This document shows positions 1,953-14,596 of a DNA stretch of 64,000 bases, piece after piece. The position numbers were made by a program, and so were the translations under genes. Within the stretch, counting starts at the first letter, position 1, and each line of letters begins with the position of its first letter. The DNA comes from Clostridia bacterium (lineage in GTDB: Bacteria > Bacillota > Clostridia > Oscillospirales > CAG-272). The notes below the pieces were generated by a model. It had not been told where the DNA came from. It searched no databases and saw only the letters and a program-made list of their open reading frames with translations. The stretch is taken from the NCBI GenBank assembly GCA_017532025.1, contig JAFXJX010000092.1:22642-86641 (forward strand), in the 5' to 3' direction.

Positions 1953-3344
1953 TTATTGCTCTTCAAATACAATTTTGTTCAGTGCGTTAACATAGGCGCG
2001 GAGCGAAGCACCAATGATGTCAGTCGAAACACCGCTGCCCGAATATACCTTACCCTGACTGCGCAGACGCACAAGCGCTTCACCCATGGCTTCCTGACCG
2101 CGAGTTACCGAGCTGATGCGGAAATCGTCGAGCTCGTAGGTCGAGCCGATCACTTTTTCCACCGCGAGGAATGCCGCGTCAATCGGACCGTTACCAATCG
2201 AAACGCCATGGCGAATCTCGCCGTCTTTTTCAATCTCCACCTGTGCCATCGGCGAAATGCGGTCGCCGCTGTTCACAATATACGAACGCAGAATATAGGT
2301 GGGAGGAACTTCGTCTGCCACATTGGCAACAATGATTTCAAGCTCCTTACCACTGACAGATTTTCTTTCGGCAAGCTTTTCAAACGCTTTATGCACCTTG
2401 GCAAGGTCATCGCTCGAGATCTCATAGCCCATGTGCGCCACAACGTCAGCAATCTGACCGATGGTTGTGCCCTTGGCAAGCAAAATCTCATCCGAATCCT
2501 CAACGCTTTCCACCGCGGTGGCAACGCCTTCGCGCTTTTCACCGTACAGCCAAGGCATTGAAGATGCCACGCGTGTCATCGCCGTGGGGTCAACCGAGGT
2601 GGCAAGTGCCCAATCGTTACCGCGCAGAGCAACCGTGCGAACAAATGCGCTGAGCGCCACAGCTTCATCGCCCACAAGAGAGGTCTTCACCGCCACAGCT
2701 TCGCCCATCACTGCGGCAACACTGTTGGCGCAAGCCATGGAAAGCGAATCGTTGCAACGCACGCCAATCGCCACGTGAGCAAACGCCTCGGAGGAATCAC
2801 GGAAATTTTTGAGGAAAGCTACGAGCTCGGTGGGCGTCGCAACGCCTTCACTATCGCACAAGGTGATGTATTTTGCACCCGATGCAAGGGCAAATTCACA
2901 CGCCCTTGTGAGGAATGCAGGCTCGCTTCTCACCGCATCAGCAGCAGAAAATTCAACCTCTTCGGTCAGTGCGGCGCAAGCCGAAACGCGCGCTTTGATC
3001 ATCTCAAGCACCTTGTCAGGCTTAGCATGACAGAAATACTCCATCTGCACCACCGATGTGGGAATTTCCACAACGAGTCTCTTGTTGGTCAAAGGAGACA
3101 GCGCCTCCCAAGCGGCATTTGCGGCATTATCTTCGTCCGAAACAAGCGCCGAAACCGTGGTGTTGCCCAAAAAAGGAAGCACGGTTTTGATAAAAAGCTT
3201 ATCTTCGCTCGTATTGCGAAGAGCGCCCGCCTCAATCACATCCACACCGAGGGCTGAAAGCTGTCTTGCCAAAATCAGGCGTTCTTTGAAGGAAAGCCCG
3301 CTGACACGGGAAAATGTGGTGTCAATCACTTGAATCTGTTTCAT
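1953..3344 (-). CDS. 2-isopropylmalate synthase/homocitrate synthase-like protein (DRE-TIM fold + C-terminal LeuA-dimer regulatory domain) with degenerate catalytic motifs
   Basis: 463-aa ORF with ATG and an AAGGAG RBS. The N-terminus VIDTTFSRVSG...LGVDVIEAG aligns to the LeuA motif DTTLRDGEQ...GVD.IE.G. The C-terminus (NGPIDAAFLAVEKV...VSTDIIGASLRAYVNALNKI) resembles the LeuA allosteric domain. The RDGEQ and HxH motifs are replaced (see findings). Confidence 0.75.
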   Translation of the reverse strand: MKQIQVIDTTFSRVSGLSFKERLILARQLSALGVDVIEAGALRNTSEDKLFIKTVLPFLGNTTVSALVSDEDNAANAAWEALSPLTNKRLVVEIPTSVVQMEYFCHAKPDKVLEMIKARVSACAALTEEVEFSAADAVRSEPAFLTRACEFALASGAKYITLCDSEGVATPTELVAFLKNFRDSSEAFAHVAIGVRCNDSLSMACANSVAAVMGEAVAVKTSLVGDEAVALSAFVRTVALRGNDWALATSVDPTAMTRVASSMPWLYGEKREGVATAVESVEDSDEILLAKGTTIGQIADVVAHMGYEISSDDLAKVHKAFEKLAERKSVSGKELEIIVANVADEVPPTYILRSYIVNSGDRISPMAQVEIEKDGEIRHGVSIGNGPIDAAFLAVEKVIGSTYELDDFRISSVTRGQEAMGEALVRLRSQGKVYSGSGVSTDIIGASLRAYVNALNKIVFEEQ

Positions 3345-3365
3345 ACATCAATACTCCTTGATTCA

Positions 3366-3626
3366 CAAAATAAAAGCCCCCGAAGCTTACGCTTCGGGGA
3401 CGAAAAAATCGTCGGTACCACCCGAATTGCAGAAAAACTGCCACTCACAAGGCTCTGAATAAAGCCCTTTGCCATGGTAACGGGGCAAACCGAAGTTCTT
3501 TACTACATCCTTCAAGAACCCTGCTCCGGAGCGAGATTGCAACAAGGCTTCCCCACCGACTCGCAGCAACCGTCGGCTCTCTGAAGAGGTTTTGACCCCA
3601 TGCATAACTCCATCTTTGCATTTACG
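3366..3626 (-). promoter_or_regulatory. T-box riboswitch leader with intrinsic terminator, upstream of the LeuA-like gene
   Basis: The minus strand reads in the canonical order. Elements are the AGAGAG (GA/K-turn) motif in stem I, the AGTA box (GTAGTAA), the F-box CCGTTA, and the T-box core AATTCGGGTGGTACCGACG (plus coordinates 3410-3428). The terminator is CCCCGAAGC-GTAA-GCTTCGGGG followed by CTTTTATTTT (3366-3400). Confidence 0.85.
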
Positions 3627-3632
3627 AGAAAC

Positions 3633-3661
3633 ATCTTACCACAACAAATCCGATTTGTCAA
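3633..3661 (-). promoter_or_regulatory. Sigma-A type promoter for the T-box leader (TTGACA-17 nt-TAAGAT)
   Basis: The minus strand has TTGACA at 3656-3661, a 17-nt spacer, and TAAGAT at 3633-3638. Confidence 0.55.
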
Positions 3662-3699
3662 GAGTTTTTTGTCATTTTTTTAATCCATGCGGGCAAATC

Positions 3700-3728
3700 T
3701 TGACTTTTTTCTTTTGTCTGTATATAAT
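3700..3728 (+). promoter_or_regulatory. Sigma-A type promoter (TTGACT-17 nt-TATAAT) for the metallophosphoesterase gene
   Basis: TTGACT lies at 3700-3705 and TATAAT at 3723-3728 with 17-nt spacing, about 30 nt upstream of the ATG at 3757. Confidence 0.6.
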
Positions 3729-3756
3729 AAAAAGGAAGAAAGCCAAGGAGTTTTGT

Positions 3757-4470
3757 ATGAAGATTACCCGATACGAGCTGAAAACCAACAACAAAAAAAC
3801 ATATAAAATCGTCATTCTTGCCGATCTACACTCAACTGTGCCTGAAGGTCTGCTTGAAACCGTCAAGAAAGAAGCCCCCGATCTTATTGCCATTCCCGGA
3901 GACTGCATCGACTATACCGTTTCGCACGCGCTGAATATGCTCCCCTTTCTTCATTCGCTTGCCGAAATTGCTCCCACCTATTACAGCGACGGCAACCACG
4001 AACTTTTCAAAGAAGAAGACGTTAGAGCCGTGGAAGAAACAGGCGTTCGTTTCTTGTTTGATCAAACAGTCACGCACGGCGAACTTGTGATCGGCGGCCT
4101 TGCCTCCGGATTTGGGTTCGGAGAACAAGGCAGATGGAAAACAACACCCGCCCCAAATACCGATTACCTAAACGAGTTTTCACGTGAACCAGGCTTCAAA
4201 ATTCTGCTCTCTCACCATCCCGAATATTATAAACCCTATCTCAAAGCGCTTCCGATCGATCTTATCATCTCAGGTCACGCGCATGGCGGACAGTGGCGTG
4301 TGTTCGGTAGAGGTGTCTTTGCCCCCGGTCAGGGAATCTTTCCCAAATACACATCGGGTGTTCATGAAAACCGCTTTGTCATCAGCCGCGGTCTTGGCAA
4401 CCACACCGTCATCCCCCGCATCTTCAATAGACCCGAAATCGTGGTGCTTACCTTAACGGGAAATCAATAA
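3757..4470 (+). CDS. Metallophosphoesterase (calcineurin-like phosphoesterase family)
   Basis: ATG at 3757 is preceded by AAGGAG. Motifs appear in family order: LADLHS, GDCIDY, GNHE, SHHP, GHAHGGQ. The longer 3592 start in the ORF track has no RBS and overlaps the promoter region. Confidence 0.85.
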   Translation: MKITRYELKTNNKKTYKIVILADLHSTVPEGLLETVKKEAPDLIAIPGDCIDYTVSHALNMLPFLHSLAEIAPTYYSDGNHELFKEEDVRAVEETGVRFLFDQTVTHGELVIGGLASGFGFGEQGRWKTTPAPNTDYLNEFSREPGFKILLSHHPEYYKPYLKALPIDLIISGHAHGGQWRVFGRGVFAPGQGIFPKYTSGVHENRFVISRGLGNHTVIPRIFNRPEIVVLTLTGNQ

Positions 4471-4483
4471 TTCTGTAGTACAA

Positions 4484-4706
4484 TGTTTCATCTAAAACTT
4501 TACATTTGGCAATACCGCGAGATCCGACCCGTCCTGTTTGCAGGCCGAGTCGCCCTGCGCTACGCTTGGGTTTCGACTGCACACCGCCCCGTGTCATCCT
4601 GAGCGACGCGAAGCAAAGTCGAGGCGCAGCCGAAGTGGGATCTCGGGCGGTGTTCCGCTCAAGATGACACGCGGAGTGAAGTGCATGTAAAGTTTTCGTT
4701 GAAACA
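4484..4706. mobile_element. MITE-like non-coding element: 223 bp bounded by 22-bp imperfect terminal inverted repeats, with a GC-rich structured interior
   Basis: TGTTTCAtctAAAACTTTACAT (4484-4505) is the inverted complement of ATGTAAAGTTTTcgtTGAAACA (4685-4706), matching 19 of 22. The interior holds a second inverted pair, GTGTCATCCTGAGCG (4591-4605) with CGCTCAAGATGACAC (4656-4670). A crossing pair also exists, CCGCGAGATCC (4515-4525) with GGGATCTCGGGCGG (4637-4650). There is no ORF. Confidence 0.45.
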
Positions 4707-4740
4707 AGTTACCTTTTTCATCTATCATCTAACCAAAGCA

Positions 4741-4767
4741 CCCCGACAGTTTTTGATTCTGTCGGGG
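4741..4767. terminator. Hairpin between convergent genes (metallophosphoesterase / AraC regulator)
   Basis: CCCCGACAG-9 nt loop-CTGTCGGGG forms a perfect 9-bp stem 12 nt below the AraC stop. The flanking T-runs are weak. Confidence 0.5.
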
Positions 4768-4778
4768 TGATATCATTT

Positions 4779-5573
4779 TTATAGCGTATGCAAATACAAA
4801 CCGCCCTGCTCGCCCTCGGCGCGTTTTTCGGTGGGAGACATCCCGTAACGCTTGCGAAAATCGCGGTAAAAGGTGGAAAAATCGTTATACCCCACCTCGC
4901 GCGAAATCTCCGCCACCGATTTTTCGGTGGTAAGCAAGAGATGCTCGGCAAGCGTCAGGCGTTCTTTTAACAAATACTGATAGGGCGTGATTCCAAACTC
5001 TTTCTTGAACAGACGTATGGTATAATCCTCCGAATAGCCGTAACGCTCTGCGATTTGGGCAAGCGAAAGCTGACTGCGGCACTCAGTGGAAATCATGCGC
5101 TGAATATCCTTGGCAATCATCGTGCGCGTGTTTTCGGGCACAACTTGATGCTCAATTTCGGCAAGAAGCTCATACATCAAGCCATTCAAAGCAAAAAAGC
5201 CACTCTCATGGGCGAGATAGCGTCGATCGTATTCTTCCATCAACGCGCGAATGGCGCTTTTGTTGAACCTGCCGCGAATCGGAATGCCGTCCGCTTCGTT
5301 TTCTGAATAGGTTGCGTGAAAATGCAAATAGAGATACGAAGGACGCTCACTTACCGCCTTTCCGCTTTGGAAAAGCCCTGCACGCTGAATGTAATATTCC
5401 CCCTCAGAAAGCTCCACAAGCACGCCGTCTTCCTCAAAACGCAGCACGCCTTCCATCATAAAGATCAAAACGCTCTCGTCGAACACGCGACTCACGTGAT
5501 GCTCACGCCGTTCAAAGCGTTTAAAGCCGCTGTATATAAATTCGGGAAGCGGTTTTCGGCAAAGATACCACAT
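4779..5573 (-). CDS. AraC family transcriptional regulator (cupin-type N-domain + C-terminal HTH)
   Basis: The C-terminal region (LSLAQIAERYGYSEDYTIRLFKKEFGITPYQYLLKERLTLAEHLL...VGYNDFSTFYRDFRKRYGMSP) is a typical AraC HTH pair. The ATG at 5573 has a GGAG 8 nt upstream. The gene is divergent from a glycoside-hydrolase-like gene. Confidence 0.85.
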   Translation of the reverse strand: MWYLCRKPLPEFIYSGFKRFERREHHVSRVFDESVLIFMMEGVLRFEEDGVLVELSEGEYYIQRAGLFQSGKAVSERPSYLYLHFHATYSENEADGIPIRGRFNKSAIRALMEEYDRRYLAHESGFFALNGLMYELLAEIEHQVVPENTRTMIAKDIQRMISTECRSQLSLAQIAERYGYSEDYTIRLFKKEFGITPYQYLLKERLTLAEHLLLTTEKSVAEISREVGYNDFSTFYRDFRKRYGMSPTEKRAEGEQGGLYLHTL

Positions 5574-5709
5574 ATCAGTTCTCCGTTGTTCACTATATCG
5601 ATTTTTGCAATTAAGTCTTCGGTTATTGTACTTGTACATTGCACGTATTTGTGTTATTATAACAAAAAAGAGAGTCTTTTGTCAACATAATTTGGAAAGG
5701 ATTTTGAAC

Positions 5710-7545
5710 ATGCTACGAAATTTGCAATATACGCCCTTTTCTGCAAATGCCATCAAGCCTGAAGGATGGTTGAAAAAGCAGCTCACAATCCAAGCAAACG
5801 GTCTTGCGGGCAATCTTGACAAAATTTGGCCCGATATTAAGGACAGTATGTGGATCGGCGGTAGCCGCCATGACTGGGAAAGAGTGCCCTATTGGCTCGA
5901 CGGCTTCATTCCGCTTGCCTATCTTTTGGATGATGAAGACATGAAACAGCGAGCCAAAACCTATGTTGACGGCATTGTTGACCGCCAGAGGGAAGACGGT
6001 TGGCTCTGCCCTTGCCGTTCCGAGCAGAGACGGCATTACGACACTTGGGCAGCCCTTCTCCTTTGCAAGGTGCTTGCACTATACTGTGACGTAACAGGCG
6101 ACAGCCGCGTCGAAGACGCGCTTTACAAAGGTCTTAAGCAATTCTCTGACCACATCAATGGTGCCACCCTTCACGACTGGGGTGCAACCCGTTGGTTTGA
6201 AGGCTTGATTCCGATCTTTTGGCTGTATGAAAAACGCCCTGAATCCTGGCTGCTCCTGCTTGCCAAAAAGCTGAATATACAAGGCTTTGACTGGGAAAGG
6301 GTCTTTGCCACCGATATGCTCGATGAGCTTACCGACGGCTGGGATTATATCTCCCACGTTGTCAATCTCGGCATGATGTTAAAATCCCGTGCCTTAATGT
6401 CGCGCATCACGGGCGAAGACCCCGAAGCGTTTGCCCAAAAAGCCTACGCTTGGCTGTATGAAAATCACGGCATGGCGTGCGGGCACTTCACAGGAGATGA
6501 GAATCTCTCCACCACAAGCCCGATTCAAGGCAGCGAGCTTTGCAGTGTCAACGAGGCTATGTTTTCGTTTGAAAATCTCTTTCAGATTTCGGGCAATCCG
6601 TATTGGCTCGATCTTGTCGAAAAAGAAGCCTTTAACGCTCTGCCCGCCACAGTCAGCCCGGATATGTGGACACATCAATACGTGCAAATGACCAATCAGG
6701 TCGAATGCTCGCGCACGCCGCACCGCGTCTTTCGCACCAACAACGAAGAAGCGCACATCTTCGGTCTTGAGCCACATTACGGTTGCTGTACCGCCAATAT
6801 GGGTCAAGGCTTCCCAAAATTCGCGCTTTCCTCGCTTTACAAAACAAAAACAGGCATTGCCTGCGGCATTCCCCTGCCCATGACGCTTGAAAGTGAAATC
6901 AACGGCACTCACCTTACCTGTCAGGTTATCACCGACTATCCCTTCCGAAGTGAGGTGCGCTTTGTCTTCCGTGCCGAAGCCCCTGTTTGCTTTGATTTCA
7001 CTTTACGCATTCCGTCGCACGCATCCTCTGCCAAAGTGAATGGAAAAGATGTTGCTTGCGGTATGTACACCTTGCCGCTTTCTGTAACAGACACAACCGA
7101 AATCACGCTCTCGCTTGATTTTACCACCCGTTTTGAAAGACGTCCGAGCGGTATGCTCGCTCTGTGGCACGGTCCGCTTCTCTATTCTCTCCCGATTGCC
7201 GAGCGCTGGGAAATGCGCGAATATGAGCGTGACGGCGTGGTGAGAAAATTCCCCTACTGCGACTATTACATCTATCCCGAATCAGACTTCAACTACGGTT
7301 TTGCTACGTCGGATATCGAAAAAATTACCGTTTGTGAAGAAGATTTCGATGCACCCTTCACTCCAAAACAGCCGCCGATCAGGTTGAAACTGCCCATGGC
7401 AAAGGTCGCTTGGGAAAAGCCGGACGGCAGATGCGCCCTTCACCCCGTTTCGAACAAAGCGATAAGCAATATTGAAACTGTCACCTTAATTCCCTACGGC
7501 TGCACCAACCTCCGCATGACCGAAATGCCGCTGATTGAAGAATAA
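5710..7545 (+). CDS. GH127/GH146-like glycoside hydrolase (beta-L-arabinofuranosidase/DUF1680-type)
   Basis: ATG at 5710 follows GAAAGGA. The architecture and motifs resemble HypBA1-type enzymes: GSELCSVNEAMFSFENL (compare GETCASVAM) and the Cys-rich HYGCCTANMGQGFPKF (compare WFGCACCPANI). The gene is paired with a divergent AraC regulator. Confidence 0.6.
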   Translation: MLRNLQYTPFSANAIKPEGWLKKQLTIQANGLAGNLDKIWPDIKDSMWIGGSRHDWERVPYWLDGFIPLAYLLDDEDMKQRAKTYVDGIVDRQREDGWLCPCRSEQRRHYDTWAALLLCKVLALYCDVTGDSRVEDALYKGLKQFSDHINGATLHDWGATRWFEGLIPIFWLYEKRPESWLLLLAKKLNIQGFDWERVFATDMLDELTDGWDYISHVVNLGMMLKSRALMSRITGEDPEAFAQKAYAWLYENHGMACGHFTGDENLSTTSPIQGSELCSVNEAMFSFENLFQISGNPYWLDLVEKEAFNALPATVSPDMWTHQYVQMTNQVECSRTPHRVFRTNNEEAHIFGLEPHYGCCTANMGQGFPKFALSSLYKTKTGIACGIPLPMTLESEINGTHLTCQVITDYPFRSEVRFVFRAEAPVCFDFTLRIPSHASSAKVNGKDVACGMYTLPLSVTDTTEITLSLDFTTRFERRPSGMLALWHGPLLYSLPIAERWEMREYERDGVVRKFPYCDYYIYPESDFNYGFATSDIEKITVCEEDFDAPFTPKQPPIRLKLPMAKVAWEKPDGRCALHPVSNKAISNIETVTLIPYGCTNLRMTEMPLIEE

Positions 7546-7589
7546 AACTCCCCCATTGGCGTACCTGCGATAGAGCAGGATTGAAAAAC

Positions 7590-7635
7590 AACAACCGCCG
7601 AGAGAGACCAATCACAGTCTCGCTCGGCGGTTGTT
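7590..7635. terminator. Bidirectional intrinsic terminator between convergent genes
   Basis: AACAACCGCCGAG (7590-7602) pairs with CTCGGCGGTTGTT (7623-7635) in a 13-bp stem. It is flanked by A-rich sequence on the left and T-rich sequence on the right. Confidence 0.7.
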
Positions 7636-7638
7636 AAA

Positions 7639-9276
7639 TTATTTAGGCAATCTGTCACAAAACATCAAAAGGTTTGATGTTACTTTTTCATCCTCTGTAA
7701 GAGGACGAAACGTACCGTTTTCATAAAGAATATCCATAACCATTAGCGCAACTGTTCGTCCGACAAAGCCACCGGTTCTATAAGTTACTACAAGATCCCG
7801 CATCTGCGGCGGATACTCTTTCGCAATCAGCATTGCTCGCTCCAATGCATAGTCTGCTAAAGTTTTCTTAAGTTCTTCATCAAGTGATGGTAACTTGGAG
7901 AAGAACTCATTTTGGTCGCCATACATCACCATAATATTGACCTTGTTATCCTTAGTCAAATATCCACGATCTCTCAGACGGTCAAATTTTTCTTTGTTAG
8001 CAGGGGTATCTTCTATAGCCCCCATCATAAACTCGTACAAATATTCATAATCCGAAGTAAGATTGTTTTCCCAAGCACCCTTGCGCGAACAATAGCGTGT
8101 ATCGATCGACCAAGAATATACAGTGGGATATTTTTCCGACCAACGATTCATATTCCCACAAGCCCAATAAGATGGATAACTTTGGAACGGAACATACTCA
8201 GGATCACTCTGTGTTGCGGGAATAGAAACGTAAGCAATAAAATCACCGCCAGCCAAGGTCTTTATATGGTATTTTGAGAGATCTGTTTTGGGCGTGATAC
8301 TACATTTGTTGGTTATGGCGTAGAATATTGCAGCCGCTTCCAACAATTCTCGATTTCCGGTTGGAATATAAATATTCTTTACGTCAGCAACAGCTGCCCT
8401 TACCTGTGGTACATATTCACGTACCAAAAGCTTGGCGATCTCCATTTGCTTTTGCTTGCATTTGTCCTGCTGTTCAAGTGAGTATGTTTGGGGATTAAAA
8501 TCTACATATGTCGTGTAGCGATTTCCTGCTTGCTCTACCAAAAAACCGTTTGCTACCAGTTCCTTAACGGCATCTTCAATATAAACGGGAGTAACGCCCA
8601 ACTCTTCAGCGATTTCAACCATTGTTCTCGGAGTATGGTAAACGCTATATACAATATTTAGATTTAATTTGTTTTTCAAATAAAACTCGGTTGCCCCATT
8701 CTGCCCCGGATTCCCGCCATGACCAAAGCTTTCTGCTTCAATTGGTTTGATACCAAGTTTTCCGATTTTTCTTTCCATTATAAAACCTTCTTTCAATTCA
8801 TTTCTTGCCTTGTTCAGATGCCATTTGATTGTACCCTCGGGAATTTCTATTTCTTTGGCAATTGTAGAGATAGACTTGTTTTCGTAATAAAATGAATATA
8901 TGATTTTACGACGTATCTGTGTTAAAAAAGCAATTTCGCGCCGTAACAAATCAATCTTCGCTTCGGAATCCTCGTCCGCAATCAATGCCTCGTCCGCAAT
9001 CAATGTATTATCGGAAATACTTATTCCGTCTATCGAAATTCCTTCTCTTTTTTTCTTGTGAGATACAAATTTCGAATAAACATGCTTGGAGATTCTCCAA
9101 ATATATCCGTCTACATTTAGTATTTCATTTGCCGAAAGCAAAGATAAATAAACTTCTGAAACAATATCAGAGCTTAATTCTTCCGCTTCTTCATAAGAAA
9201 ATGATTTTTTCATGGCAAAACCATAAATTTTAGGCAGATACTCAACGATCAACTCGTCTGCTTGTTGTTTTTTCAT
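7639..9276 (-). CDS. Sigma-70 family (ECF-like) RNA polymerase sigma factor fused to a large soluble C-terminal domain containing a second winged-helix-like segment
   Basis: The N-terminal ~170 aa have a sigma region 2-like segment (IVEYLPKIYGFAMKK...DIVSEVYLSLL). They also have a region 4 HTH (KSISTIAKEIEIPEGTIKWHLNKARNELK). About 370 further residues follow with no TM segment. The ATG at 9276 has a GAGG 7 nt upstream. The gene is visibly AT-rich. Confidence 0.7.
   Translation of the reverse strand: MKKQQADELIVEYLPKIYGFAMKKSFSYEEAEELSSDIVSEVYLSLLSANEILNVDGYIWRISKHVYSKFVSHKKKREGISIDGISISDNTLIADEALIADEDSEAKIDLLRREIAFLTQIRRKIIYSFYYENKSISTIAKEIEIPEGTIKWHLNKARNELKEGFIMERKIGKLGIKPIEAESFGHGGNPGQNGATEFYLKNKLNLNIVYSVYHTPRTMVEIAEELGVTPVYIEDAVKELVANGFLVEQAGNRYTTYVDFNPQTYSLEQQDKCKQKQMEIAKLLVREYVPQVRAAVADVKNIYIPTGNRELLEAAAIFYAITNKCSITPKTDLSKYHIKTLAGGDFIAYVSIPATQSDPEYVPFQSYPSYWACGNMNRWSEKYPTVYSWSIDTRYCSRKGAWENNLTSDYEYLYEFMMGAIEDTPANKEKFDRLRDRGYLTKDNKVNIMVMYGDQNEFFSKLPSLDEELKKTLADYALERAMLIAKEYPPQMRDLVVTYRTGGFVGRTVALMVMDILYENGTFRPLTEDEKVTSNLLMFCDRLPK
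8970..9005. repeat. Perfect 18-bp tandem duplication inside the sigma-fusion gene
   Basis: CCTCGTCCGCAATCAATG occurs at 8970-8987 and again, immediately adjacent, at 8988-9005. It is in frame and encodes the duplicated peptide LIADEA/LIADED in the linker between the sigma regions. Confidence 0.9.
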
Positions 9277-9498
9277 TTTATTACCTCGGTACCGTTTGCC
9301 CATATAGTGGAAAGAAATGCAAAAAGGTTGGCAGTTTTGAAATGATTATATCACAAATTTCTAAATTTGTATACGTTTAATTCGCATTTACATCCACAAA
9401 AGCAGTGCTTGTCAGGAAAATTGACAAACTTTCGGAACGCACAAATCAAAGGATCCCTCCCGGAGGAAGGCTATTTTATCCCCCGACAGTATGGAAAA

Positions 9499-9534
9499 GG
9501 AGTACGAACAAATCGTCCGTACTCCTTTTGTTTT
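9499..9534. terminator. Intrinsic-terminator-like hairpin (works on either strand)
   Basis: GGAGTACG-11 nt-CGTACTCC is followed by TTTTGTTTT on the plus strand and by TTTTCC on the minus strand. Confidence 0.5.
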
Positions 9535-9558
9535 GCGGCAGGTAAACCTGCTTTATGG

Positions 9559-9581
9559 AAAACTCCCCCACGGGGAGTTTT
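9559..9581 (-). terminator. Intrinsic terminator of the divIC-like gene
   Basis: AAAACTCCCC-GTG-GGGGAGTTTT starts at the stop codon of the 9581-9874 gene. Confidence 0.6.
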
Positions 9582-9874
9582 TATTCTTCATCCTGATCCT
9601 CGGCAACGATCTGCTCTTCGCCGGGGAAATAATAGCCAAGCTTTCGCATGATGCGAATGATATATTCGTCGGTCACGTCGAGCGAAAGGTCATGCTCGTA
9701 TTTTTCATTTTCGGCAATCAAAGCCTCTTTCTGCGCGCGAAGACGCTCAAGCTCCTCGTCTTTTTCACCGCTGGCAACCTGCGTGGAAATCACCGTCACA
9801 AGCGCCACGGCGGCAACCATCAGACAGATCGCAATGAGATAGACCTTCTTTTTCATCAACAACTGTTTCATCAT
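9581..9874 (-). CDS. divIC: Septum formation initiator family protein (DivIC/FtsB-like)
   Basis: It has a single N-terminal TM segment (VYLIAICLMVAAVALVTVI) and then a coiled coil (EELERLRAQKEALIAENEKYEHDL). It sits after yabQ, as in the Bacillus yabP-yabQ-divIC order. The ATG at 9874 has an AAAGG RBS. Confidence 0.7.
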   Translation of the reverse strand: MMKQLLMKKKVYLIAICLMVAAVALVTVISTQVASGEKDEELERLRAQKEALIAENEKYEHDLSLDVTDEYIIRIMRKLGYYFPGEEQIVAEDQDEE

Positions 9875-9896
9875 GCACAACCTTTTTTCATTAACA

Positions 9897-10388
9897 TTAC
9901 AGTCGGCGAATGCCGACAAGATAACCCTTTTCACCAAGATGCGAGAGCTTTGCAAAAAAGCGCTTGGCTCTTCGCCGTTTTCCAATCAACGCCACACGGT
10001 CAAAAATCCGCTTCATAAAGCGAAAAGCAAACGCAAACGGCAGCTTCACAAGAGACAAAAGCCGCAAAAGAAGCGGATATGTCACCCTCGACAAAGTCAC
10101 GCGGAAGAGACAAAAGCCGAGAATTGCCATCACAAACGCCGAGGGGCGCACCTTGCCGCTGTTGGTGACGTAAAAAAGAATCGACATCACCGCGCCGCTA
10201 AAAGTAAAAAACAAAAAATCCTCAAGCGAGATACAACAAGCGTTCAAAAAACGAAAAACCTTCTTGTTGGGCTTTCGGAGTGTACGCAAAAGGCGAATGC
10301 CGTCGTACACAAATGCCAGCGCAAAGCCGATGACAAACGCCGAGATCAGCAGAATGAGCAGCTTTTTTTGCGAAAGATAAAGCGTCAT
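9897..10388 (-). CDS. yabQ: Spore cortex biosynthesis protein YabQ
   Basis: This is a 163-aa multi-pass membrane protein directly downstream of yabP, overlapping it by 4 nt. Size and position are typical for YabQ. Confidence 0.7.
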   Translation of the reverse strand: MTLYLSQKKLLILLISAFVIGFALAFVYDGIRLLRTLRKPNKKVFRFLNACCISLEDFLFFTFSGAVMSILFYVTNSGKVRPSAFVMAILGFCLFRVTLSRVTYPLLLRLLSLVKLPFAFAFRFMKRIFDRVALIGKRRRAKRFFAKLSHLGEKGYLVGIRRL

Positions 10389-10657
10389 TTACGGCGACCG
10401 AACAACCCTTTTTTGTGCGTGGCGCGCTCATCGGTATAGTAAATGCCGCTGATTTTGCCCTCGAGCGACACGCGCCCTGCTTCCATATCCATTTTCTTCA
10501 CGCGCATTTCCTCCCCCTCCACCACCAAAAGTCCAAGTGACGTGGAAAGCGAGACCAAGCCGTCATCAAACGACAAAACGTCGATCACACCGTCGGCATC
10601 CAAAGCTTTTCTTGCCAGAAGTGTGATATTTCCCGATGCTTCGGTATATTTTTCCAT
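10385..10657 (-). CDS. yabP: Sporulation protein YabP
   Basis: The sequence (GNITLLARKALDADGVIDVLSFDDGLVSLSTSLGLLVVEGEEMRVKKMDMEAGRVSLEGKISGIYY) is a typical YabP-family pattern. The ATG at 10657 has an AAGGGA RBS. An alternative ATG lies at 10681. Confidence 0.75.
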   Translation of the reverse strand: MEKYTEASGNITLLARKALDADGVIDVLSFDDGLVSLSTSLGLLVVEGEEMRVKKMDMEAGRVSLEGKISGIYYTDERATHKKGLFGRRK

Positions 10658-10714
10658 GGTAAGTTCCCTTTCATACAGCATGTCATAGCTATGTGTATGT
10701 GGAAGTGTGTCTGT

Positions 10715-10963
10715 TTATTCCTGTGAGAGTACCTCAAACATCGAGGAGGCTTCGGCTTTGCCGATATGCTCGGTAATCGCCGTTACGCGTACTGTCAAAG
10801 TTCTTTGACCGAATTTGATCTCGATCACGTCGCCAATCTTCACCTGATAGGAAGGCTTAACCACCTTACCGTTCACCGAAATATGCTCGCCGTCACAAGC
10901 GTCACTCGCCACGGTGCGGCGTTTGATCAGACGCGAGACCTTCAAATATTTATCAATTCTCAT
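10715..10963 (-). CDS. yabO: S4-domain RNA-binding protein (YabO/Hsp15-like)
   Basis: MRIDKYLKVSRLIKRRTVASDACDGEHISVNGKVVKPSYQVKIGDVIEI matches the S4 domain signature. Synteny with mazG and yabP supports the call. Confidence 0.85.
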   Translation of the reverse strand: MRIDKYLKVSRLIKRRTVASDACDGEHISVNGKVVKPSYQVKIGDVIEIKFGQRTLTVRVTAITEHIGKAEASSMFEVLSQE

Positions 10964-11613
10964 GACAAAACTTCCTTTTCCTTGGCATCCACCTCGTCAA
11001 TGCGGCGGTTGCAGGCATCAAAAAGTGCCTTTTCGGGGTCAATACCGCTTTCGTTGCAAAGCGCGCAAATATCAAACAGCATATCACCCACAGTCTCTTC
11101 CAAGGGCTTGGCATAGCCGCCCTTCTTTGCCTTTTTGGCAATCTTGGCAGCGCGCATCAAAGACGGCAGCGTGCGCGAAACCGATGAAAGACTTTCGGTT
11201 ACGGTTTCACGCTTTTTGGTCTCTTCCTTGATCTTTTCCCAGTTGACAAGCACCTCGCCCGAATTTTCCACCTGAATGTCGCCAAACACATGAGGATGGC
11301 GCACCACAAGCTTGCGGCAGACCTCGTCAGCCACGTCGTCAAAGCTAAAATCCCCCGCTTCTTCCGAAATGCGGGCATGGAATACCACCTGCAGCAGCAC
11401 GTCGCCAAGCTCCTCGCGAAGCAGCGGTACGTCGGCAGTATCAATGGCTTCCACCACTTCATAGGTCTCTTCAATAAAATTCTGGCGAATCGATTCGTGC
11501 GTCTGCTCCCTATCCCACGGACAGCCGTTTTCCGAACGGAGCACCTCCATAATCGTCAAAAGATCGTTCACCGTATAGCGTTCCTTGTTTTTGAGTTCTT
11601 CAATGCGATTCAT
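10960..11613 (-). CDS. mazG: Nucleoside triphosphate pyrophosphohydrolase MazG
   Basis: The motifs LRSENGCPWDREQTHESIRQNFIEETYEVVEAID and EELGDVLLQVVFHARI are MazG-type. The ATG at 11613 has an AAAGGA RBS. An alternative start lies at 11637. Confidence 0.85.
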   Translation of the reverse strand: MNRIEELKNKERYTVNDLLTIMEVLRSENGCPWDREQTHESIRQNFIEETYEVVEAIDTADVPLLREELGDVLLQVVFHARISEEAGDFSFDDVADEVCRKLVVRHPHVFGDIQVENSGEVLVNWEKIKEETKKRETVTESLSSVSRTLPSLMRAAKIAKKAKKGGYAKPLEETVGDMLFDICALCNESGIDPEKALFDACNRRIDEVDAKEKEVLS

Positions 11614-11644
11614 AATCGAATCCTTTCTTTTTATCATTCAGTCA

Positions 11645-13269
11645 TTATGACAATATATGCAGTTTTTGCAGTTTTTTGGCGAGTTTTTCCGAAAGTCCAA
11701 GTGAAATGGCATCTTCAAGCGTTACCGCTTTCAAACAAGATACCATCAAAAGAAACACAAGCACACCTGCCGCAATGGCAAGTAGCGTAGCAAGCGCTTC
11801 ATAGGGCAAAACATTTGATAATAAGCGATTGGCAAACAGTGACGCAACAGCCATGGGAAGCGATGCCAAAAATGGCTTTACCAAAAGCTTTCCGAGTGAA
11901 ATACCGCCGCACGAGCGGGCAAGATAGCCGAGATTTAAGGCGGCAACCACCGTATAGCAAAGAAAAGTCCCCACAGGGGTTGCGATCATACCAAAGCGAA
12001 GCATACCAAAATAGCTGACCGCGCATTTGGTGAAAATCCCAACACCAATGGCAAAAATCGGAAACCACAGCTTGCCGTACGCCTGCAAGAGCGAGTTTGT
12101 TACGGTTAGCAGTGCAAGCGGAAAAACAGACAGCGCTAACACAGCGAGAAGCGGCGTTGCCATTGCCACGCTTTCCTCGCTCGAAAACAAAAGCGAAAGA
12201 ATCGGCTTGGAGAGAAGCGAAAGCCCAAACGATGCAGGAAGCGCCAAGAGGGATGCCAATGAGAGCGCGCGAAATGCGGCTTTTTGAGCGCAGATCGTGT
12301 CTTTGCGCGTCAATGCGCCCCTCACAAAGGGAGAAACCGAATAGGCAATCGGCAGAATCAAAACGGTTGGCATGTTGAAAAGCGGCACGGCAAGCGCTGT
12401 ATAATTGCCAAAGGCAGCATTCGCCTCTGCCACGCTATACCCGATCTTGCGAAGGGTACGCATCACCAAAAACAAATCGAGCGAGGAAGCAAGCGTCATC
12501 ACCGAAGCGCTGATCGTATGGGGAAGGCAAGCTTTGCTATCTTGCGAAGATTTTCTTTTCTCTCGAAAGAGGAGATCGCGCCGCAACACGCCGCCAGATG
12601 TCCTTCGTCAGAATCAAAGTGCCGTTTGCAAAGGTAAAGCGAGAGGGTGGCAAAAAACGATGCCAAGGTCAAGCCGAAAATGGCATACGCCGCAACCACA
12701 GAACGATTGTAATAGGAGAGCGCCAAAGAAGCAAACAAAAGCCCGAAGATAAACTTTCCGCCCGCCTCCAAAATCTGCGAAAGCGCAATCGGCACCATCC
12801 GCCGCCGTCCTTGAAAATAGCCGCGCAAAGCGCCGGCATAGGTCATAAACAAAAGCGTGGGAGAGACCGCCAAAATGCCTGCAGCAGCCTCCGACGAGCC
12901 CAAAAGACGCGAAAAATGCCGTGCGGGAAGCGCCATCAGGAGCATACCGAAAAAGCCCACGATCAAAAACAGTCGGGCAGCGCTTCTATACAGCTTGCCG
13001 GCTCCTCTCTCATCCCCCTTGGCAACCGATTCCGAAACCAATAAGGAAAGCGCCACGGGAAGACCCGAGGTTGCCAGCACAAAAAAGAGCGTATATACGG
13101 TGTATGCGGCATTGAAATATCCCATGCCCTCATCCCCCAAGAGATTGGTTAGGGGGATTTTATACACCATACCCAAGAATTTAACCAAAAGACCCGAAAC
13201 GGCAAGTGCCACCGTTCCCGAAGAAAAGCGAAGTGCCTTTTCCCTTTTGTTCAAACTGCCCACAGTCAT
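11645..13269 (-). pseudogene. MOP/MurJ-family flippase (SpoVB/YabM-like polysaccharide biosynthesis protein) split by a frameshift into 12499-13269 and 11645-12589
   Basis: Two overlapping ORFs in different frames together make a ~540-aa multi-pass protein. The N-terminal part reads GTVALAVSGLLVKFLGMVYKIPLTNLLGDEGMGYFNAAY. The frames exchange near 12515-12530: frame A reads LRKIAKLAFPI then stops, and frame B continues TISASVMTLASSLDL. The position before mazG matches Bacillus yabM. Confidence 0.65.
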
Positions 13270-13315
13270 GCCCGCCTCCGACAAACAGCCGCGAGCAAAA
13301 AAGTCAGCTTACGGC

Positions 13316-14581
13316 TTAATAATCACACACCCGTTTGAAATCATCCTTAATTCTTTCAATATCAAGCGTTGTGAATTCGCCGTTTTCATATACAATCTTG
13401 CCATCCACCACCGTCATCAAAACATCGCGCGAGGATGCGCTGTAAACGGCGGTGTAAGAGGCATCATAAGTAGGAATGGTATTCAAGGAGTCAAGCGACA
13501 GAAGCACAAGGTCGGCAGCATAGCCCACGCAGAGCTTACCCGCTTTTTCCCTTCGTTGTGCAAAGGCTCCGTTTTCTGTTGCCATTTTGAGAATATCGCC
13601 TGCCTTGCCGAGCGACGGATTTCGTAAGGTACCCTTGGCAAGAAGCGATGCGGTATAAATTTCGCGGAAAAGATCAAGCGAATTGTTAGAGGCGGCACCG
13701 TCTGTGCCAAGCGTAACGTTCACGCCTTTTTCGCACATCTTGGTGATGTTGGCAACACCGCTGCCAAGCTTCAAGTTACTGCAGGGATTGTGCGCCACAC
13801 TTGCGCCTTTTGCCGCCAGAATTTCCATATCGTCATCGGTGAGATACACACCGTGCGCGCAGGTCGCAGGCGCTTCAAACACGCCGCAATCGTCAAGAAA
13901 CGCGGTGGGCGTTTTGCCGTGACGGCCAATACACTCGTTATGCTCTTTTTCGGTTTCCGAAAGATGGATCTGCATCAAAAGCCCCGCATCCTTGGTGTAA
14001 GCCGCCACGTCGCGGATATAACCTTCCACGTTGGTATATTCGGCGTGGAGCGACATATCGATTTTGAGTCTTCCCTCGGCGGCATTGTGATAATTCTTCA
14101 CAAGCGCAACCGATTCAGCAAAGCGAGAATCACCCTTGATGCGTGCGGCAGGGTCAAACGAAACCAGCGAGCGCGAAAGGTTTGCTTTGATGCCCGATTC
14201 AATCACAGCCTCAGCCGTTTCTTCGCAGAAGAAATACATATCCGAAAACGAAACGATGCCGCCGCGAAGCATTTCGGCAATCGCAAGCTGAGACGCCACT
14301 CTCACCTTCTCGGGTGTGAGTCTGTCTTCGGCGGGATAAATGCGCGTGGTCAGCCAGGTATCCAGCGGCATATCCTCGCCGTAGCCGCGAAAGAGAGTCA
14401 TCGCAGCATGGCAATGGGTGTTGTAAAGCCCGGGCATCAAAAGATTGCCGCGGCAATCCACCTCGCGGTCAAACGCCCCTTCGGGGCGCTTAATACCAAT
14501 ATAGGAGATCACGCGCTCAGTAACAGACACAAAAGCCGTTGTGTTATCGAGCAGACGCGCGTTTTTGAACAAAATTGTCAT
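13316..14581 (-). CDS. mtaD: Amidohydrolase, 5-methylthioadenosine/S-adenosylhomocysteine deaminase-like (MtaD)
   Basis: The sequence contains LMPGLYNTHCHAAMTLFRGYGEDMPLDTWL, later HLSET, and a C-terminal GTDGAASNN. These are motifs of the MtaD/chlorohydrolase subgroup. Confidence 0.8.
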   Translation of the reverse strand: MTILFKNARLLDNTTAFVSVTERVISYIGIKRPEGAFDREVDCRGNLLMPGLYNTHCHAAMTLFRGYGEDMPLDTWLTTRIYPAEDRLTPEKVRVASQLAIAEMLRGGIVSFSDMYFFCEETAEAVIESGIKANLSRSLVSFDPAARIKGDSRFAESVALVKNYHNAAEGRLKIDMSLHAEYTNVEGYIRDVAAYTKDAGLLMQIHLSETEKEHNECIGRHGKTPTAFLDDCGVFEAPATCAHGVYLTDDDMEILAAKGASVAHNPCSNLKLGSGVANITKMCEKGVNVTLGTDGAASNNSLDLFREIYTASLLAKGTLRNPSLGKAGDILKMATENGAFAQRREKAGKLCVGYAADLVLLSLDSLNTIPTYDASYTAVYSASSRDVLMTVVDGKIVYENGEFTTLDIERIKDDFKRVCDY

Positions 14582-14596
14582 AAAATTTCCTTTCTG

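What the first reader, a model, noticed from the sequence alone, without database searches (positions are those of the whole stretch)
7639..9303. AT-rich single-gene island encoding a sigma factor fused to a ~370-aa cytoplasmic domain
Lines sampled inside this gene run about 27-42% GC, against about 50-58% in neighbouring genes. This is an eyeballed estimate, not a computed one. That suggests horizontal acquisition. The product has sigma-70 regions 2 and 4, then a long soluble extension with a second winged-helix-like stretch (MVEIAEELGVTPVYIEDAVKELVANGFLVE). It has no TM segment and there is no adjacent anti-sigma gene. ECF-like sigmas with fused C-terminal regulatory domains are known for some groups, but I do not recognise this extension. 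It may be a self-contained one-component sigma/sensor.
Basis: partly seen in the sequence, partly recalled or inferred. Interest (0 to 1): 0.55.

Follow-up and report, generated by a model that had tools for sequence, protein, structure and literature searches.

The report
Self-promoted sigma factor fused to regulator
This AT-rich single gene encodes an alternative RNA-polymerase sigma factor permanently joined to a DNA-binding-type regulator module of unknown fold; it carries its own conserved promoter and belongs to a large, uncharacterised, horizontally mobile family of gut and rumen bacteria.

Summary
ORF 7639..9303(-) exists. Its GC is 38.7% (GC3 35.9%) against a window mean of 49.0%, the lowest stretch in the window. 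About 4 points come from amino-acid composition and about 8.5 from foreign codon usage. The true start is the ATG at 9276 (545 aa), because the first ATG lies inside a promoter -10.

The product is an ECF-type sigma2-sigma4 domain, a conserved junction, a winged helix, and a ~290-aa alpha/beta domain. That last domain has no Pfam, PDB or viral-fold match despite a pLDDT 94.6 model. It has no TM segment and no anti-sigma neighbour.

The gene belongs to a large family (more than 1000 clusters) in Oscillospiraceae, Butyrivibrio, Ruminococcus and Treponema. Context is variable, some copies sit next to IS elements, and annotation is generic.

New here:
- A bipartite promoter, CCAACC-N16-CACTATAT, precedes the gene in 31/31 loci. 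It also precedes relatives only 34% identical and one non-family gene. This points to autoregulation.
- The module also exists as a stand-alone gene.
- The sigma4/module junction is the most synonymously constrained part of the gene. It encodes an SD-like sequence plus an in-frame ATG, so internal initiation is possible.

Verdict: a new variant of the known "ECF sigma with regulatory extension" kind. The sensing function is inferred, not shown.

The parts
9345..9373 (-). SigmaA-type promoter with extended -10 (TATACA-17 nt-TGtgaTATAAT); the likely basal promoter
   Evidence: Consensus scan gives 10/12 matches with a TG extension. The equivalent ATAGAC-N17-TGATATAAT is conserved in many Oscillospiraceae loci.
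9302..9343 (-). Family-specific bipartite promoter: A-tract, G-CCAACC-TTTT (-35), invariant 16-nt spacing, CACTATAT (-10). Inferred to be the autoregulatory ECF-type promoter.
   Evidence: CCAACC-N16-CACTNTAT occurs once per locus in 31/31 loci, always just upstream of the gene, and nowhere else in 518 kb. The spacer sequence varies while its length does not. The motif is also upstream of family members 34-54% identical and of one non-family gene in L037.
9277..9301 (-). Conserved leader GGCAAACGGTACCGAGGTAATAAA, with the Shine-Dalgarno GAGG at 9284-9287
   Evidence: Direct reading; conservation across loci.
7639..9276 (-).
   Evidence: Met-1 of this version aligns with the Met-1 of at least 90% of 88 homologues.
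9055..9276 (-). Sigma region 2 (aa 1-74)
   Evidence: TIGR02937 covers aa 15-172 of the 554-aa ORF. Sigma70_r2 is weak at 14.4 bits. The model has helices 3-74 at pLDDT about 80-87. Foldseek matches ECF sigmas SigH/SigL/SigE/SigW.
8935..9054 (-). Disordered sigma2-sigma4 linker (aa 75-114), containing an exact 18-bp tandem duplication at 8970-9005
   Evidence: pLDDT is below 50 for residues 75-114. TRF reports 2.0 copies at 100% identity. The duplication is absent from the 97%-identical P0001.
8779..8934 (-). Sigma region 4 (aa 115-166)
   Evidence: Sigma70_r4 E 6.8e-10; Sigma70_r4_2 E 1.4e-7.
8731..8799 (-). Conserved junction L-K-E-G-F-I-M-E-R-K-I-G-K-L-G-I-K-P-I (aa 160-182). It contains an SD-like AAAGAAGG (8785-8793) and the in-frame ATG of Met167 (8776-8778). 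This is a candidate internal translation start.
   Evidence: This stretch has the lowest synonymous diversity of the gene: 0.22 against a mean of 0.51, sd 0.08. The AAG codon is used in 27/29 loci and GAG in 20/29, against 13.5 expected for each. The SD-like sequence plus ATG is retained in relatives at 25-38% identity. Stand-alone module genes begin at this motif.
8509..8691 (-). Winged helix-turn-helix (aa ~196-256)
   Evidence: TrmB/HTH_24/MarR_2 hits fall just below cutoff. Foldseek aligns 55-60 residues to MarR/ArsR/DtxR/IclR wHTH domains at 1.2-2.6 A rmsd.
7642..8508 (-). C-terminal alpha/beta domain (~290 aa) with no recognisable family or fold. Invariant residues include C373, R378, K382, D392, R398, N405, D409, E415, K430 and R433.
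   Evidence: Zero Pfam hits at E<=10. The module model has pLDDT 94.6 and pTM 0.90. No PDB or BFVD match at E<0.001.
7580..7635 (.). Strong hairpin terminator (19-bp stem, 95% complementary) shared by the convergent sigma and GH127-like genes
   Evidence: Inverted repeat I2 at 7590-7608/7617-7635. On the minus strand it is followed by GTTTTTC.

Best explanation
The gene encodes an ECF-type (group 4) sigma factor whose usual separate anti-sigma partner is replaced by a fused cytoplasmic module. That module is a winged helix plus a ~290-aa alpha/beta domain of unknown fold.

The gene is a self-contained transcription unit. A sigmaA-type promoter gives basal expression. A second, family-specific promoter (CCAACC-N16-CACTATAT) is read by the protein's own sigma domain, giving positive feedback. 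The fused module then decides whether the sigma is active, most likely by binding a cytoplasmic ligand or partner. It does so in cis, or in trans where the module is a separate protein.

The unit moves horizontally among gut and rumen anaerobes. It reached this genome relatively recently from a lower-GC donor.

Shown:
- the domain architecture;
- the absence of any known fold for the module;
- the foreign composition and the distribution across hosts;
- the conserved bipartite motif with fixed spacing;
- the existence of stand-alone module genes.

Inferred:
- the sigma binds RNA polymerase core and reads that motif;
- the module is regulatory or sensory;
- the direction of transfer.
For: Sigma identity:
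- TIGR02937 scores above its curated cutoff.
- Foldseek and phmmer hit only ECF sigmas.
- There is no sigma3, and the sigma2-sigma4 linker is disordered.

No anti-sigma and no conserved neighbours in 31 loci.

Promoter:
- The motif is present in 31/31 loci, with invariant 16-nt spacing and a variable spacer sequence. It has an AAC-containing -35 followed by a T-tract, as in Firmicute ECF promoters, and lies about 25 nt before the start codon.
- It is retained in the Treponema copy, where the leader has diverged.
- At least 9 of 17 independent metagenome hits lie in front of other family members down to 34% identity.
- In L037 it sits after a terminator and in front of a different gene, a T9SS-sorted GLUG protein. 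So it behaves as a portable promoter.

Module autonomy:
- The isolated module folds as one compact unit, pTM 0.90.
- It is shaped like a one-component regulator, with an N-terminal wHTH and a C-terminal domain carrying many invariant polar residues.
- Stand-alone genes occur in L036 and L037, next to fused paralogues.

HGT.
Against: - No experiment or ligand-site evidence shows sensing.
- Pfam Sigma70_r2 is below its gathering score in this protein (14.4 against 24 bits).
- The full-length model gives no confident docking of the module on the sigma domains: pTM is 0.68, against 0.90 for the module alone. An intramolecular inhibitory interface is therefore not supported.
- The regulon is unknown. 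Apart from self-promoters, only one candidate target was found, and none in the 64-kb window even with 2 mismatches.
- The conserved motif could in principle be bound by the wHTH and not by the sigma domain.
- Several paralogues appear to share the same -35/-10, which raises an unanswered specificity problem.
Confidence: 0.55

Rival explanations
1. Two proteins from one gene. As well as the 545-aa fusion, ribosomes start at the conserved internal Met167, behind the SD-like AAGGAGG encoded by the K-E-G codons. This produces a free ~379-aa wHTH+module protein. That protein acts in trans on the sigma, either like an anti-sigma or as an oligomerisation partner.
For: - The junction is the most synonymously constrained stretch of the whole gene, about 3.5 sd below the mean.
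- AAG is used in 27/29 loci and GAG in 20/29, against 13.5 expected for each. The A-rich codons after the ATG are kept even in hosts where the gene's GC3 is above 0.70.
- A GGAGG or GGAAGG core lies 7-11 nt before a conserved in-frame ATG in relatives down to 25-38% identity.
- Genuine stand-alone module genes begin at exactly this motif.
- The one fused protein that lacks the SD/Met arrangement has a stand-alone module gene next door.
- Gene callers repeatedly chose this Met on truncated contigs.
Against: - In the window itself, and in L001, the SD is degraded to AAAGAAGG.
- The K-E-G residues are conserved at the protein level, which already forces GARGG.
- The sequences are phylogenetically related, so the codon counts are not independent.
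- The whole sigma4 region (codons 123-175) shows lowered synonymous diversity. This could reflect mRNA structure, recombination between paralogues or translational pausing.
Confidence: 0.3
2. Sigma with a built-in activator or tether. The module is not a sensor. It is a second DNA-binding or oligomerising unit whose winged helix contacts DNA near the promoter, for example the A-tract or the conserved leader. This would give the holoenzyme extra promoter specificity.
For: - The wHTH has a canonical MarR/ArsR-type fold.
- Conserved sequence exists outside the -35/-10: the upstream TTTCAAAAA and the leader GGCAAACGGTACCG, which contains the palindrome CGGTACCG (CGGCGCCG in L026).
- Paralogues share the same -35/-10, so another specificity determinant is needed.
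Against: - The leader palindrome is not consistently maintained: it reads CGGCGTCG, CGTAACCG or CGGTATCA in other loci and is absent in Treponema.
- The leader differs completely in family members at 34-54% identity that keep the -35/-10.
- No DNA-binding data exist.
Confidence: 0.2
3. Sigma mimic. The N-terminal domain is a degenerate sigma-like fold that does not bind RNA polymerase, as in PhyR. The protein would then be an ordinary wHTH transcription factor, or a partner-switching component.
For: Sigma70_r2 scores below Pfam's threshold in this protein. None of the specific NCBIfam sigma equivalog or subfamily models is passed.
Against: - TIGR02937 passes its cutoff.
- Region 2 passes the Pfam threshold in relatives, at 27.7 and 26.6 bits.
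- A promoter-like bipartite motif with fixed spacing co-travels with the gene across phyla.
- There is no receiver domain and no NepR-like partner.
Confidence: 0.08
4. The AT-richness is not a sign of transfer. It is simply an intrinsic property of this family (K/N/I/Y/E-rich protein, low expression).
For: The gene is 2-8 GC points below its flanks in nearly all 30 other genomes. About 4.2 of the 12.7 points here come from amino-acid composition.
Against: - GC3 tracks the host in other genomes (0.36-0.75). Here it is 0.36 in a host whose genes have GC3 0.50-0.68, the largest deviation seen.
- Identity to L001 is 96.8% for the gene against 86.5% for the flanks.
- The family has a cross-phylum distribution and variable context, and sits next to IS elements in Butyrivibrio.
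Confidence: 0.12

Closest known systems
[quoted passage not shown]
   Same: It has a sigma2-sigma4 core without sigma3. The extension after sigma4 is longer than 50 aa. There is no co-encoded anti-sigma factor. The gene stands alone and has a group-specific, apparently autoregulatory promoter.
   Different: The extension is about 370 aa, much longer than the 20-200 aa of the characterised groups. It contains a complete winged-helix DNA-binding-type domain plus a domain with no Pfam or PDB relative. None of the described extension types (SnoaL, TPR, Cys-rich, DUF1835, TM helices, WD40) is present. The module also exists as a separate gene. The hosts are gut Clostridia and spirochaetes.
ECF262, an uncharacterised extension-bearing ECF group. 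Its model protein is SFB89493.1 from Ruminococcus albus, listed under 'Others' in Table 2 of PMC8999054.
   Same: The host type is a rumen Clostridium. It has a fused extension of unknown function and no described mechanism. R. albus 7 does carry a distant member of the present superfamily on plasmid pRUMAL02 (WP_013483710.1; hhalign probability 99%).
   Different: Identity with ECF262 could not be tested. No text describing the group was available. SFB89493.1 was not found in the cluster of the R. albus 7 protein.
One-component wHTH regulators (TrmB, MarR, IclR and GntR/FadR types)
   Same: The module on its own has their layout: an N-terminal winged helix, then a long helix, then a C-terminal globular domain. 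Its wHTH superposes on theirs at about 2 A rmsd. TrmB is the best Pfam wHTH hit.
   Different: All wHTH Pfam scores are below their gathering thresholds. The effector-type domain shows no fold similarity to theirs (TM <= 0.15). Here the module is usually fused behind a sigma factor.
Canonical ECF sigma / anti-sigma pairs (SigW-RsiW, SigE-RseA, AlgU-MucA)
   Same: The sigma domain resembles these sigmas structurally. The L037 arrangement, a fused gene followed by a stand-alone module gene, resembles a sigma gene followed by its regulator gene.
   Different: There is no anti-sigma domain, zinc-binding motif or TM helix. The module is cytoplasmic and has a wHTH.
PhyR (a sigma-like domain fused to a receiver domain)
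   Same: A sigma2-sigma4-like domain is fused to a C-terminal signalling domain.
   Different: There is no receiver domain and no NepR partner. A co-travelling promoter motif argues that this is a working sigma.

Membership tests
ECF (group 4) sigma-70 family | Sigma2 and sigma4 domains present; sigma1.1 and sigma3 absent | tested here: met
   Sigma70_r4, r4_2 and (weakly) r2 hit, with no r3 or r1 hit. The model shows two helical bundles joined by a 40-aa disordered linker.
ECF (group 4) sigma-70 family | Scores above the curated threshold of the ECF superfamily model TIGR02937 | tested here: met
   54.6 bits against a cutoff of 42.9, covering aa 15-172.
ECF (group 4) sigma-70 family | Region 2 passes Pfam Sigma70_r2 gathering score | tested here: not met
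   14.4 bits against 24 in the window's protein. Relatives P0292 and P0368 pass, at 27.7 and 26.6 bits.
ECF (group 4) sigma-70 family | Structural similarity to solved ECF sigma factors | tested here: met
   The Foldseek top 25 are all ECF sigmas (SigH, SigL, SigE, RpoE, AlgU, SigW), with E from 5e-5 to 1e-2.
ECF (group 4) sigma-70 family | Own gene preceded by a group-specific bipartite promoter (AAC-type -35, fixed spacer) | tested here: met
   CCAACC-N16-CACTNTAT is present in 31/31 loci and in front of distant members.
ECF (group 4) sigma-70 family | Binds RNA polymerase core and initiates transcription at its cognate promoter | not testable with these tools
   Needs biochemistry or genetics.
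ECF (group 4) sigma-70 family | Assignment to a defined ECF group (ECF Hub group HMMs) | not testable with these tools
   The group HMMs are not available here. No NCBIfam equivalog or subfamily model is passed.
ECF sigmas with regulatory C-terminal extension | Extension of more than 50 aa after sigma4, with no co-encoded anti-sigma factor | tested here: met
   The extension is about 370 aa. No anti-sigma-like neighbour appears in the window or in 30 loci.
ECF sigmas with regulatory C-terminal extension | Extension belongs to one of the described types (SnoaL-like, TPR, Cys-rich, DUF1835, TM helices, WD40, carbohydrate-binding) | tested here: not met
   Only wHTH-type sub-threshold Pfam hits were found, and the last 293 aa give none at E<=10. 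There is no TM segment.
ECF sigmas with regulatory C-terminal extension | Extension modulates sigma activity | not testable with these tools
   The full-length model gives no confident inter-domain packing (pTM 0.68). Truncation genetics are needed.
TrmB/MarR-type wHTH one-component regulators | Winged helix-turn-helix fold | tested here: met
   Foldseek aligns 53-61 columns at 1.2-2.6 A rmsd to ZitR, YodB, CzrA, DtxR and MarR.
TrmB/MarR-type wHTH one-component regulators | Passes the family's Pfam gathering score | tested here: not met
   TrmB 21.8 against 25.6; HTH_24 20.7 against 21.9; MarR_2 16.5 against 27.
TrmB/MarR-type wHTH one-component regulators | Homologous effector-binding or dimerisation domain | tested here: not met
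   No fold match beyond the wHTH: TM <= 0.15 and best E 0.035.
Genomic island (classical) | Compositional deviation from the host | tested here: met
Genomic island (classical) | Integrase, tRNA target and flanking direct repeats | tested here: not met
   There is no tRNA in 1-20000 and no integrase among the neighbours. The only flanking repeat is a ~20-nt inverted repeat made of gene ends and terminator halves.
Anti-phage defence systems (PADLOC) | Match to a defence-system protein model beyond a generic HTH | tested here: not met
   Only HTH-level hits to Csa3 and CasR were found.

The most novel reading that the evidence does not exclude
The gene is a compact 'sigma plus its own regulator from one reading frame' device. 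The full-length product is the sigma-module fusion. A conserved internal Shine-Dalgarno/ATG at the sigma4-module junction also yields the free wHTH+module protein, which controls the fusion in trans by titration or hetero-oligomerisation. Together with the co-travelling self-promoter, this would make a portable, self-contained feedback switch built on a regulator fold not yet seen in any solved structure.
Probability: 0.25. Interest if true: 0.75.

Novelty: new variant of a known kind. Interest (0 to 1): 0.55.

Why it matters
ECF sigma factors with fused extensions are the least understood branch of the third major bacterial signalling system. Most extension-bearing groups have no characterised member.

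This family is large: more than 1000 clusters at 90% identity, and 315 at 50% for the module alone. It is widespread in rumen and gut anaerobes, including culturable Butyrivibrio and Ruminococcus. It joins a sigma factor to what looks like a complete one-component regulator of unknown fold.

The analysis yields a concrete, testable promoter (CCAACC-N16-CACTATAT), a high-confidence structural model, a culturable test organism, and a specific hypothesis of internal translation initiation. If the module is a ligand sensor, the unit would also be an attractive orthogonal, single-gene, self-amplifying switch for engineering anaerobes.

For annotation, three corrections follow. The start codon should be moved to 9276. 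Many ~380-aa 'proteins' in metagenome catalogues are truncated calls of this family. The C-terminal domain deserves its own family model.

Tried and rejected
- **Stand-alone module as the common form: rejected.** Four of six ~380-425-aa 'stand-alone' representatives proved to be truncated gene calls. Their upstream in-frame codons read sigma region 4. Only L036 and L037 are genuine.
- **A conserved operon partner or anti-sigma: rejected.** Clustering the neighbours of 31 loci found only generic or spurious recurrent families: an ABC ATPase, AraC-PocR, XRE-TPR, a repetitive surface protein and an antisense ORF. None is related to the module.
- **Phage or plasmid carriage: not supported.** No phage record carries the module. 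The only plasmid hit is a distant R. albus megaplasmid paralogue. No PHROG covers the module.
- **Defence system: rejected**.
- **Known RNA element in the leader or intergenic region: none**.
- **Additional motif copies or paralogues in the window: none**.
- **A palindromic operator in the leader (CGGTACCG): considered.** It is not consistently conserved, so it was not adopted.
- **Link to ECF262: could not be established**.
- **Empty-site comparison in conspecific strains, anchored on MazG: no exact match on record**.
- **Classical island hallmarks: absent**.
Full report
**1. Observation**

The ORF at 7639..9303 on the minus strand (554 aa) is real.

Its GC content is 38.7%, against a window mean of 49.0% (sd 3.0% for windows of the same length). 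It is the lowest stretch in the 64-kb window. GC3 is 35.9%, against 50-68% for all other long ORFs.

I split the deficit into two parts. Host genes average 51.4% GC. This protein encoded with host codon preferences would be 47.2%. The observed value is 38.7%. So about 4 points come from the K/N/I/Y/E-rich amino-acid composition and about 8.5 points from truly atypical codon usage. For example, 90% of Val codons end in A/T, against 36% in the host.

**2. Gene boundaries**

Upstream lies a good sigmaA-type extended -10 promoter (TATACA-17-TGtgaTATAAT, 9373..9345).

The first ATG (9303) has no ribosome-binding site and lies inside a conserved -10-like element. The second ATG (9276) has GAGG 8 nt upstream and coincides with Met-1 of at least 90% of 88 aligned homologues. 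The protein is therefore 545 aa.

After the stop codon comes a 19-bp-stem hairpin followed by a T-run (7590-7635).

The gene is monocistronic. It lies between the divIC-yabQ-yabP-S4-mazG cluster and a convergent GH127-like gene.

**3. The protein**

*N-terminal 166 residues.* This part passes the curated threshold of the ECF sigma model TIGR02937 (54.6 against 42.9 bits). It has a clear region 4, a weak region 2 and no region 3. PDB sequence and fold searches return only ECF sigmas: SigH, SigL, SigE, AlgU and SigW.

*Structure model.* An AlphaFold2 model built on 88 diverse homologues has these features:
- two helical sigma domains joined by a 40-residue disordered linker;
- a short disordered junction;
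- a very confident C-terminal module.

Modelled alone, the module reaches pLDDT 94.6 and pTM 0.90.

*The module.* Its first ~60 structured residues form a canonical winged helix. They superpose on MarR, ArsR, DtxR and IclR DNA-binding domains at 1.2-2.6 A rmsd. The Pfam hits (TrmB, HTH_24, MarR_2) fall just below threshold.

The remaining ~290 residues form a mixed alpha/beta domain. This domain has:
- no Pfam hit, even at E<=10;
- no NCBIfam, PHROG or PADLOC family;
- no PDB sequence match;
- no PDB or viral fold match (best E 0.035, TM <= 0.15).

There is no TM segment.

**4. The family**

The architecture is not a one-off. More than 1000 clusters at 90% identity match over the full length. 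The module alone finds 315 clusters at 50% identity.

Carriers include Oscillospiraceae (Faecousia, Flemingiibacterium), Acutalibacteraceae, Ruminococcus, Lachnospiraceae (cultured Butyrivibrio fibrisolvens DSM 3071) and several Treponema. All are annotated only as 'sigma-70 family'.

A 512-aa protein on the R. albus 7 megaplasmid pRUMAL02 is a distant member. It shares the sigma domain, the junction and the wHTH (hhalign probability 99%).

**5. Horizontal transfer**

Neighbourhoods are not conserved across 31 loci. Two loci have tandem paralogues. In B. fibrisolvens the gene lies between IS66 and IS605 transposases.

The gene's GC3 follows its host, ranging from 0.36 to 0.75. It usually lies 2-8 GC points below its flanks. 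The window and its near-conspecific L001 are the extreme case, at -10 to -12 points.

The nearest other relative (82% identity) sits in 37%-GC DNA.

Between the window and L001, the sigma region is 96.8% identical while the adjacent chromosome is 86.5% identical. The window also has a 3.07-kb AraC+GH127 cassette inserted exactly beside it.

Classical island hallmarks (tRNA, integrase, direct repeats) are absent.

I conclude that the gene arrived, or was replaced, fairly recently from a lower-GC lineage, at a locus prone to gene flux.

**6. A co-travelling promoter**

Aligning the upstream regions revealed an element present in every locus. It consists of:
- an A-tract;
- G-CCAACC-TTTT;
- a variable spacer;
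- CACTATAT;
- a leader carrying the Shine-Dalgarno sequence.

The strict pattern CCAACC-N16-CACTNTAT occurs exactly once in each of 31 loci. It always lies about 25 nt before the start codon, always has a 16-nt spacer, and occurs nowhere else in 518 kb. It persists in the Treponema copy, where the surrounding sequence has diverged.

I scanned the metagenome collection with the same -35/-10 pair, written to exclude this subfamily's own leader. The scan gave 17 hits. At least 9 are directly upstream of other family members, including proteins only 34-38% identical. Butyrivibrio and other long-contig copies also have the motif.

In L037 the motif sits after a terminator, 35 nt before a different gene. 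That gene encodes a secreted GLUG-motif protein with a type IX secretion sorting domain. It lies immediately downstream of a fused family gene and a stand-alone module gene.

Three features argue that the family's own sigma domain reads this promoter, giving autoregulation with a basal sigmaA promoter upstream:
- two conserved blocks at a fixed distance with a free spacer;
- an AAC-type -35 followed by a T-tract;
- co-inheritance with the gene across phyla.

This is an inference, not a demonstration. No second copy exists in the window, even with 2 mismatches, so the regulon remains unknown.

**7. The module as an autonomous unit**

The representative search suggested many ~380-aa 'module-only' proteins.

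Four of the six I examined are artefacts. Their contigs break about 50 nt upstream of the called start, and the in-frame upstream codons read sigma region 4.

Two are genuine:
- In L037 a 413-aa gene lies 170 nt downstream of a complete 556-aa fused paralogue (29% identity between them).
- In L036 a module gene directly follows the end of another family gene.

The genuine stand-alone proteins begin exactly at the junction motif (x-G-x-x-G-I-K-P-I).

**8. The junction**

The junction motif L-K-E-G-F-x-M-E-R-K-x-G-K-L-G-x-x-P is almost invariant in the family.

At the DNA level it is the most synonymously constrained stretch of the gene. Its diversity is 0.22, against a mean of 0.51 and sd 0.08. 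The true start region scores only 0.43-0.46.

The K-E-G codons are AAG-GAG-GG far more often than the genes' own codon usage predicts: 27/29 and 20/29, against 13.5 expected for each. The result is AAGGAGG 8 nt before the conserved in-frame ATG, followed by A-rich codons even in high-GC hosts.

The same arrangement is seen in relatives at 25-38% identity. The one fused gene that lacks it is the L037 gene, which has a separate module gene next door.

This suggests internal translation initiation producing a free module. There are caveats:
- the counts are not phylogenetically independent;
- the amino-acid motif already forces part of the SD;
- in the window itself the SD is weakened to AAAGAAGG.

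I rate this at about 0.25-0.3.

**9. Comparison with what is known**

ECF sigmas with fused C-terminal extensions are an established kind. They are the second most common mode of ECF regulation, covering 19 or more groups (PMC7826278, PMC8999054).

Characterised extensions are SnoaL-like (ECF41), TPR (ECF42) and Cys-rich (ECF238). The catalogued types include DUF1835, TM helices and WD40. None of these is present here.

An uncharacterised group, ECF262, has a Ruminococcus albus model protein (Table 2 of PMC8999054). It may correspond to this superfamily, but I could not verify that.

The present case therefore works like a 'one-component' ECF sigma. Its extension is a different and much larger entity: a complete wHTH-plus-domain regulator-like module of unknown fold that can also live as a separate gene.

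**10. Verdict**

I classify the finding as a new variant of a known kind.

It is of moderate interest for three reasons:
- the family is large;
- it occurs in culturable organisms;
- the analysis produced a specific promoter, a confident model and a testable internal-start hypothesis.

Function as a sensor, the signal and the regulon all remain inferred or unknown.

Noticed in passing
window 8970-9005: An exact 18-bp tandem duplication (2.0 copies, 100% identity) inside the disordered sigma2-sigma4 linker duplicates LIADEA. It is absent from the 97%-identical homologue P0001, so it is a very recent in-frame slippage event.
   Followed up: yes
window 4471-7549 versus L001 1819-1822: Compared with the near-conspecific MAG contig L001, the window carries an extra 3.07-kb cassette (AraC regulator plus GH127-like glycosidase). 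It is inserted exactly between the sigma gene's terminator and the metallophosphoesterase gene. The sigma region is 96.8% identical between the two genomes, but the flanking chromosome is only 86.5% identical.
   Followed up: partly
window 7536-7555 and 9571-9590: A ~20-nt inverted repeat (TGAAGAATAAAACTCCCC) brackets the sigma gene. On each side it consists of the last codons and stop of the flanking gene (GH127-like, DivIC) plus the first half of a terminator. It may be coincidence or a recombination scar.
   Followed up: partly
window 9430-9580: Three separate hairpins lie between the divIC stop and the sigma promoters (9565-9577, 9495-9529, 9454-9468). This is more insulation than a single terminator would need.
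   Followed up: no
window 11645-13284: A MurJ/SpoVB-type flippase-like gene appears split into two overlapping ORFs (11645-12589 and 12499-13284, minus strand). This suggests a frameshift or a sequencing error.
   Followed up: no
window 41383-48117: A giant ORF (2245 aa, minus strand) has the second-lowest GC3 in the window (0.457 against 0.50-0.68). It may be another foreign or atypical gene.
   Followed up: no
L037 3161-7917: In a 35%-GC contig from an organism with type IX secretion, three elements lie in a row: a fused family gene (556 aa, no motif upstream), a stand-alone module gene (413 aa), and then the CCAACCTTTT-N12-CACTATAT motif driving a 517-aa GLUG plus Por_Secre_tail protein. 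This is the only candidate non-self target found.
   Followed up: partly
L057/L058 9707-11404: A Ser/Thr protein kinase gene starts 78 nt downstream of the family gene, and a second kinase lies 4 kb further on. Kinase-regulated ECF sigmas are known, so this could be a second regulatory layer in that lineage.
   Followed up: no
L055 (B. fibrisolvens CP146963.1) 969-7495 and 13528-15267: IS605 (Y1 transposase plus OrfB) and IS66 transposase genes lie directly upstream of the family gene. A distant paralogue (579 aa, 23% identity over sigma plus wHTH) lies 4 kb downstream.
   Followed up: partly
L039, L046, L049: Three 29%-GC metagenome contigs share a repeated non-coding element (aatccccatcacCCAACCTTTT..CACTATATatggtgtttgt) that contains the motif, with no ORF downstream. 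Its nature is unknown.
   Followed up: no
metagenome protein catalogues (P0241, P0256, P0259, P0266; L031-L034): Many ~380-aa 'proteins' are truncated calls of this family. Contigs break in the conserved sigma4 DNA, and gene callers pick the internal Met behind the SD-like KEG codons.
   Followed up: yes
PHROG phrog_1740: The sigma domain matches positions 52-215 of a 567-position phage 'RNA polymerase sigma factor' profile. So phages also have long sigma factors with a ~350-aa C-terminal part, but the module here does not match that part.
   Followed up: no
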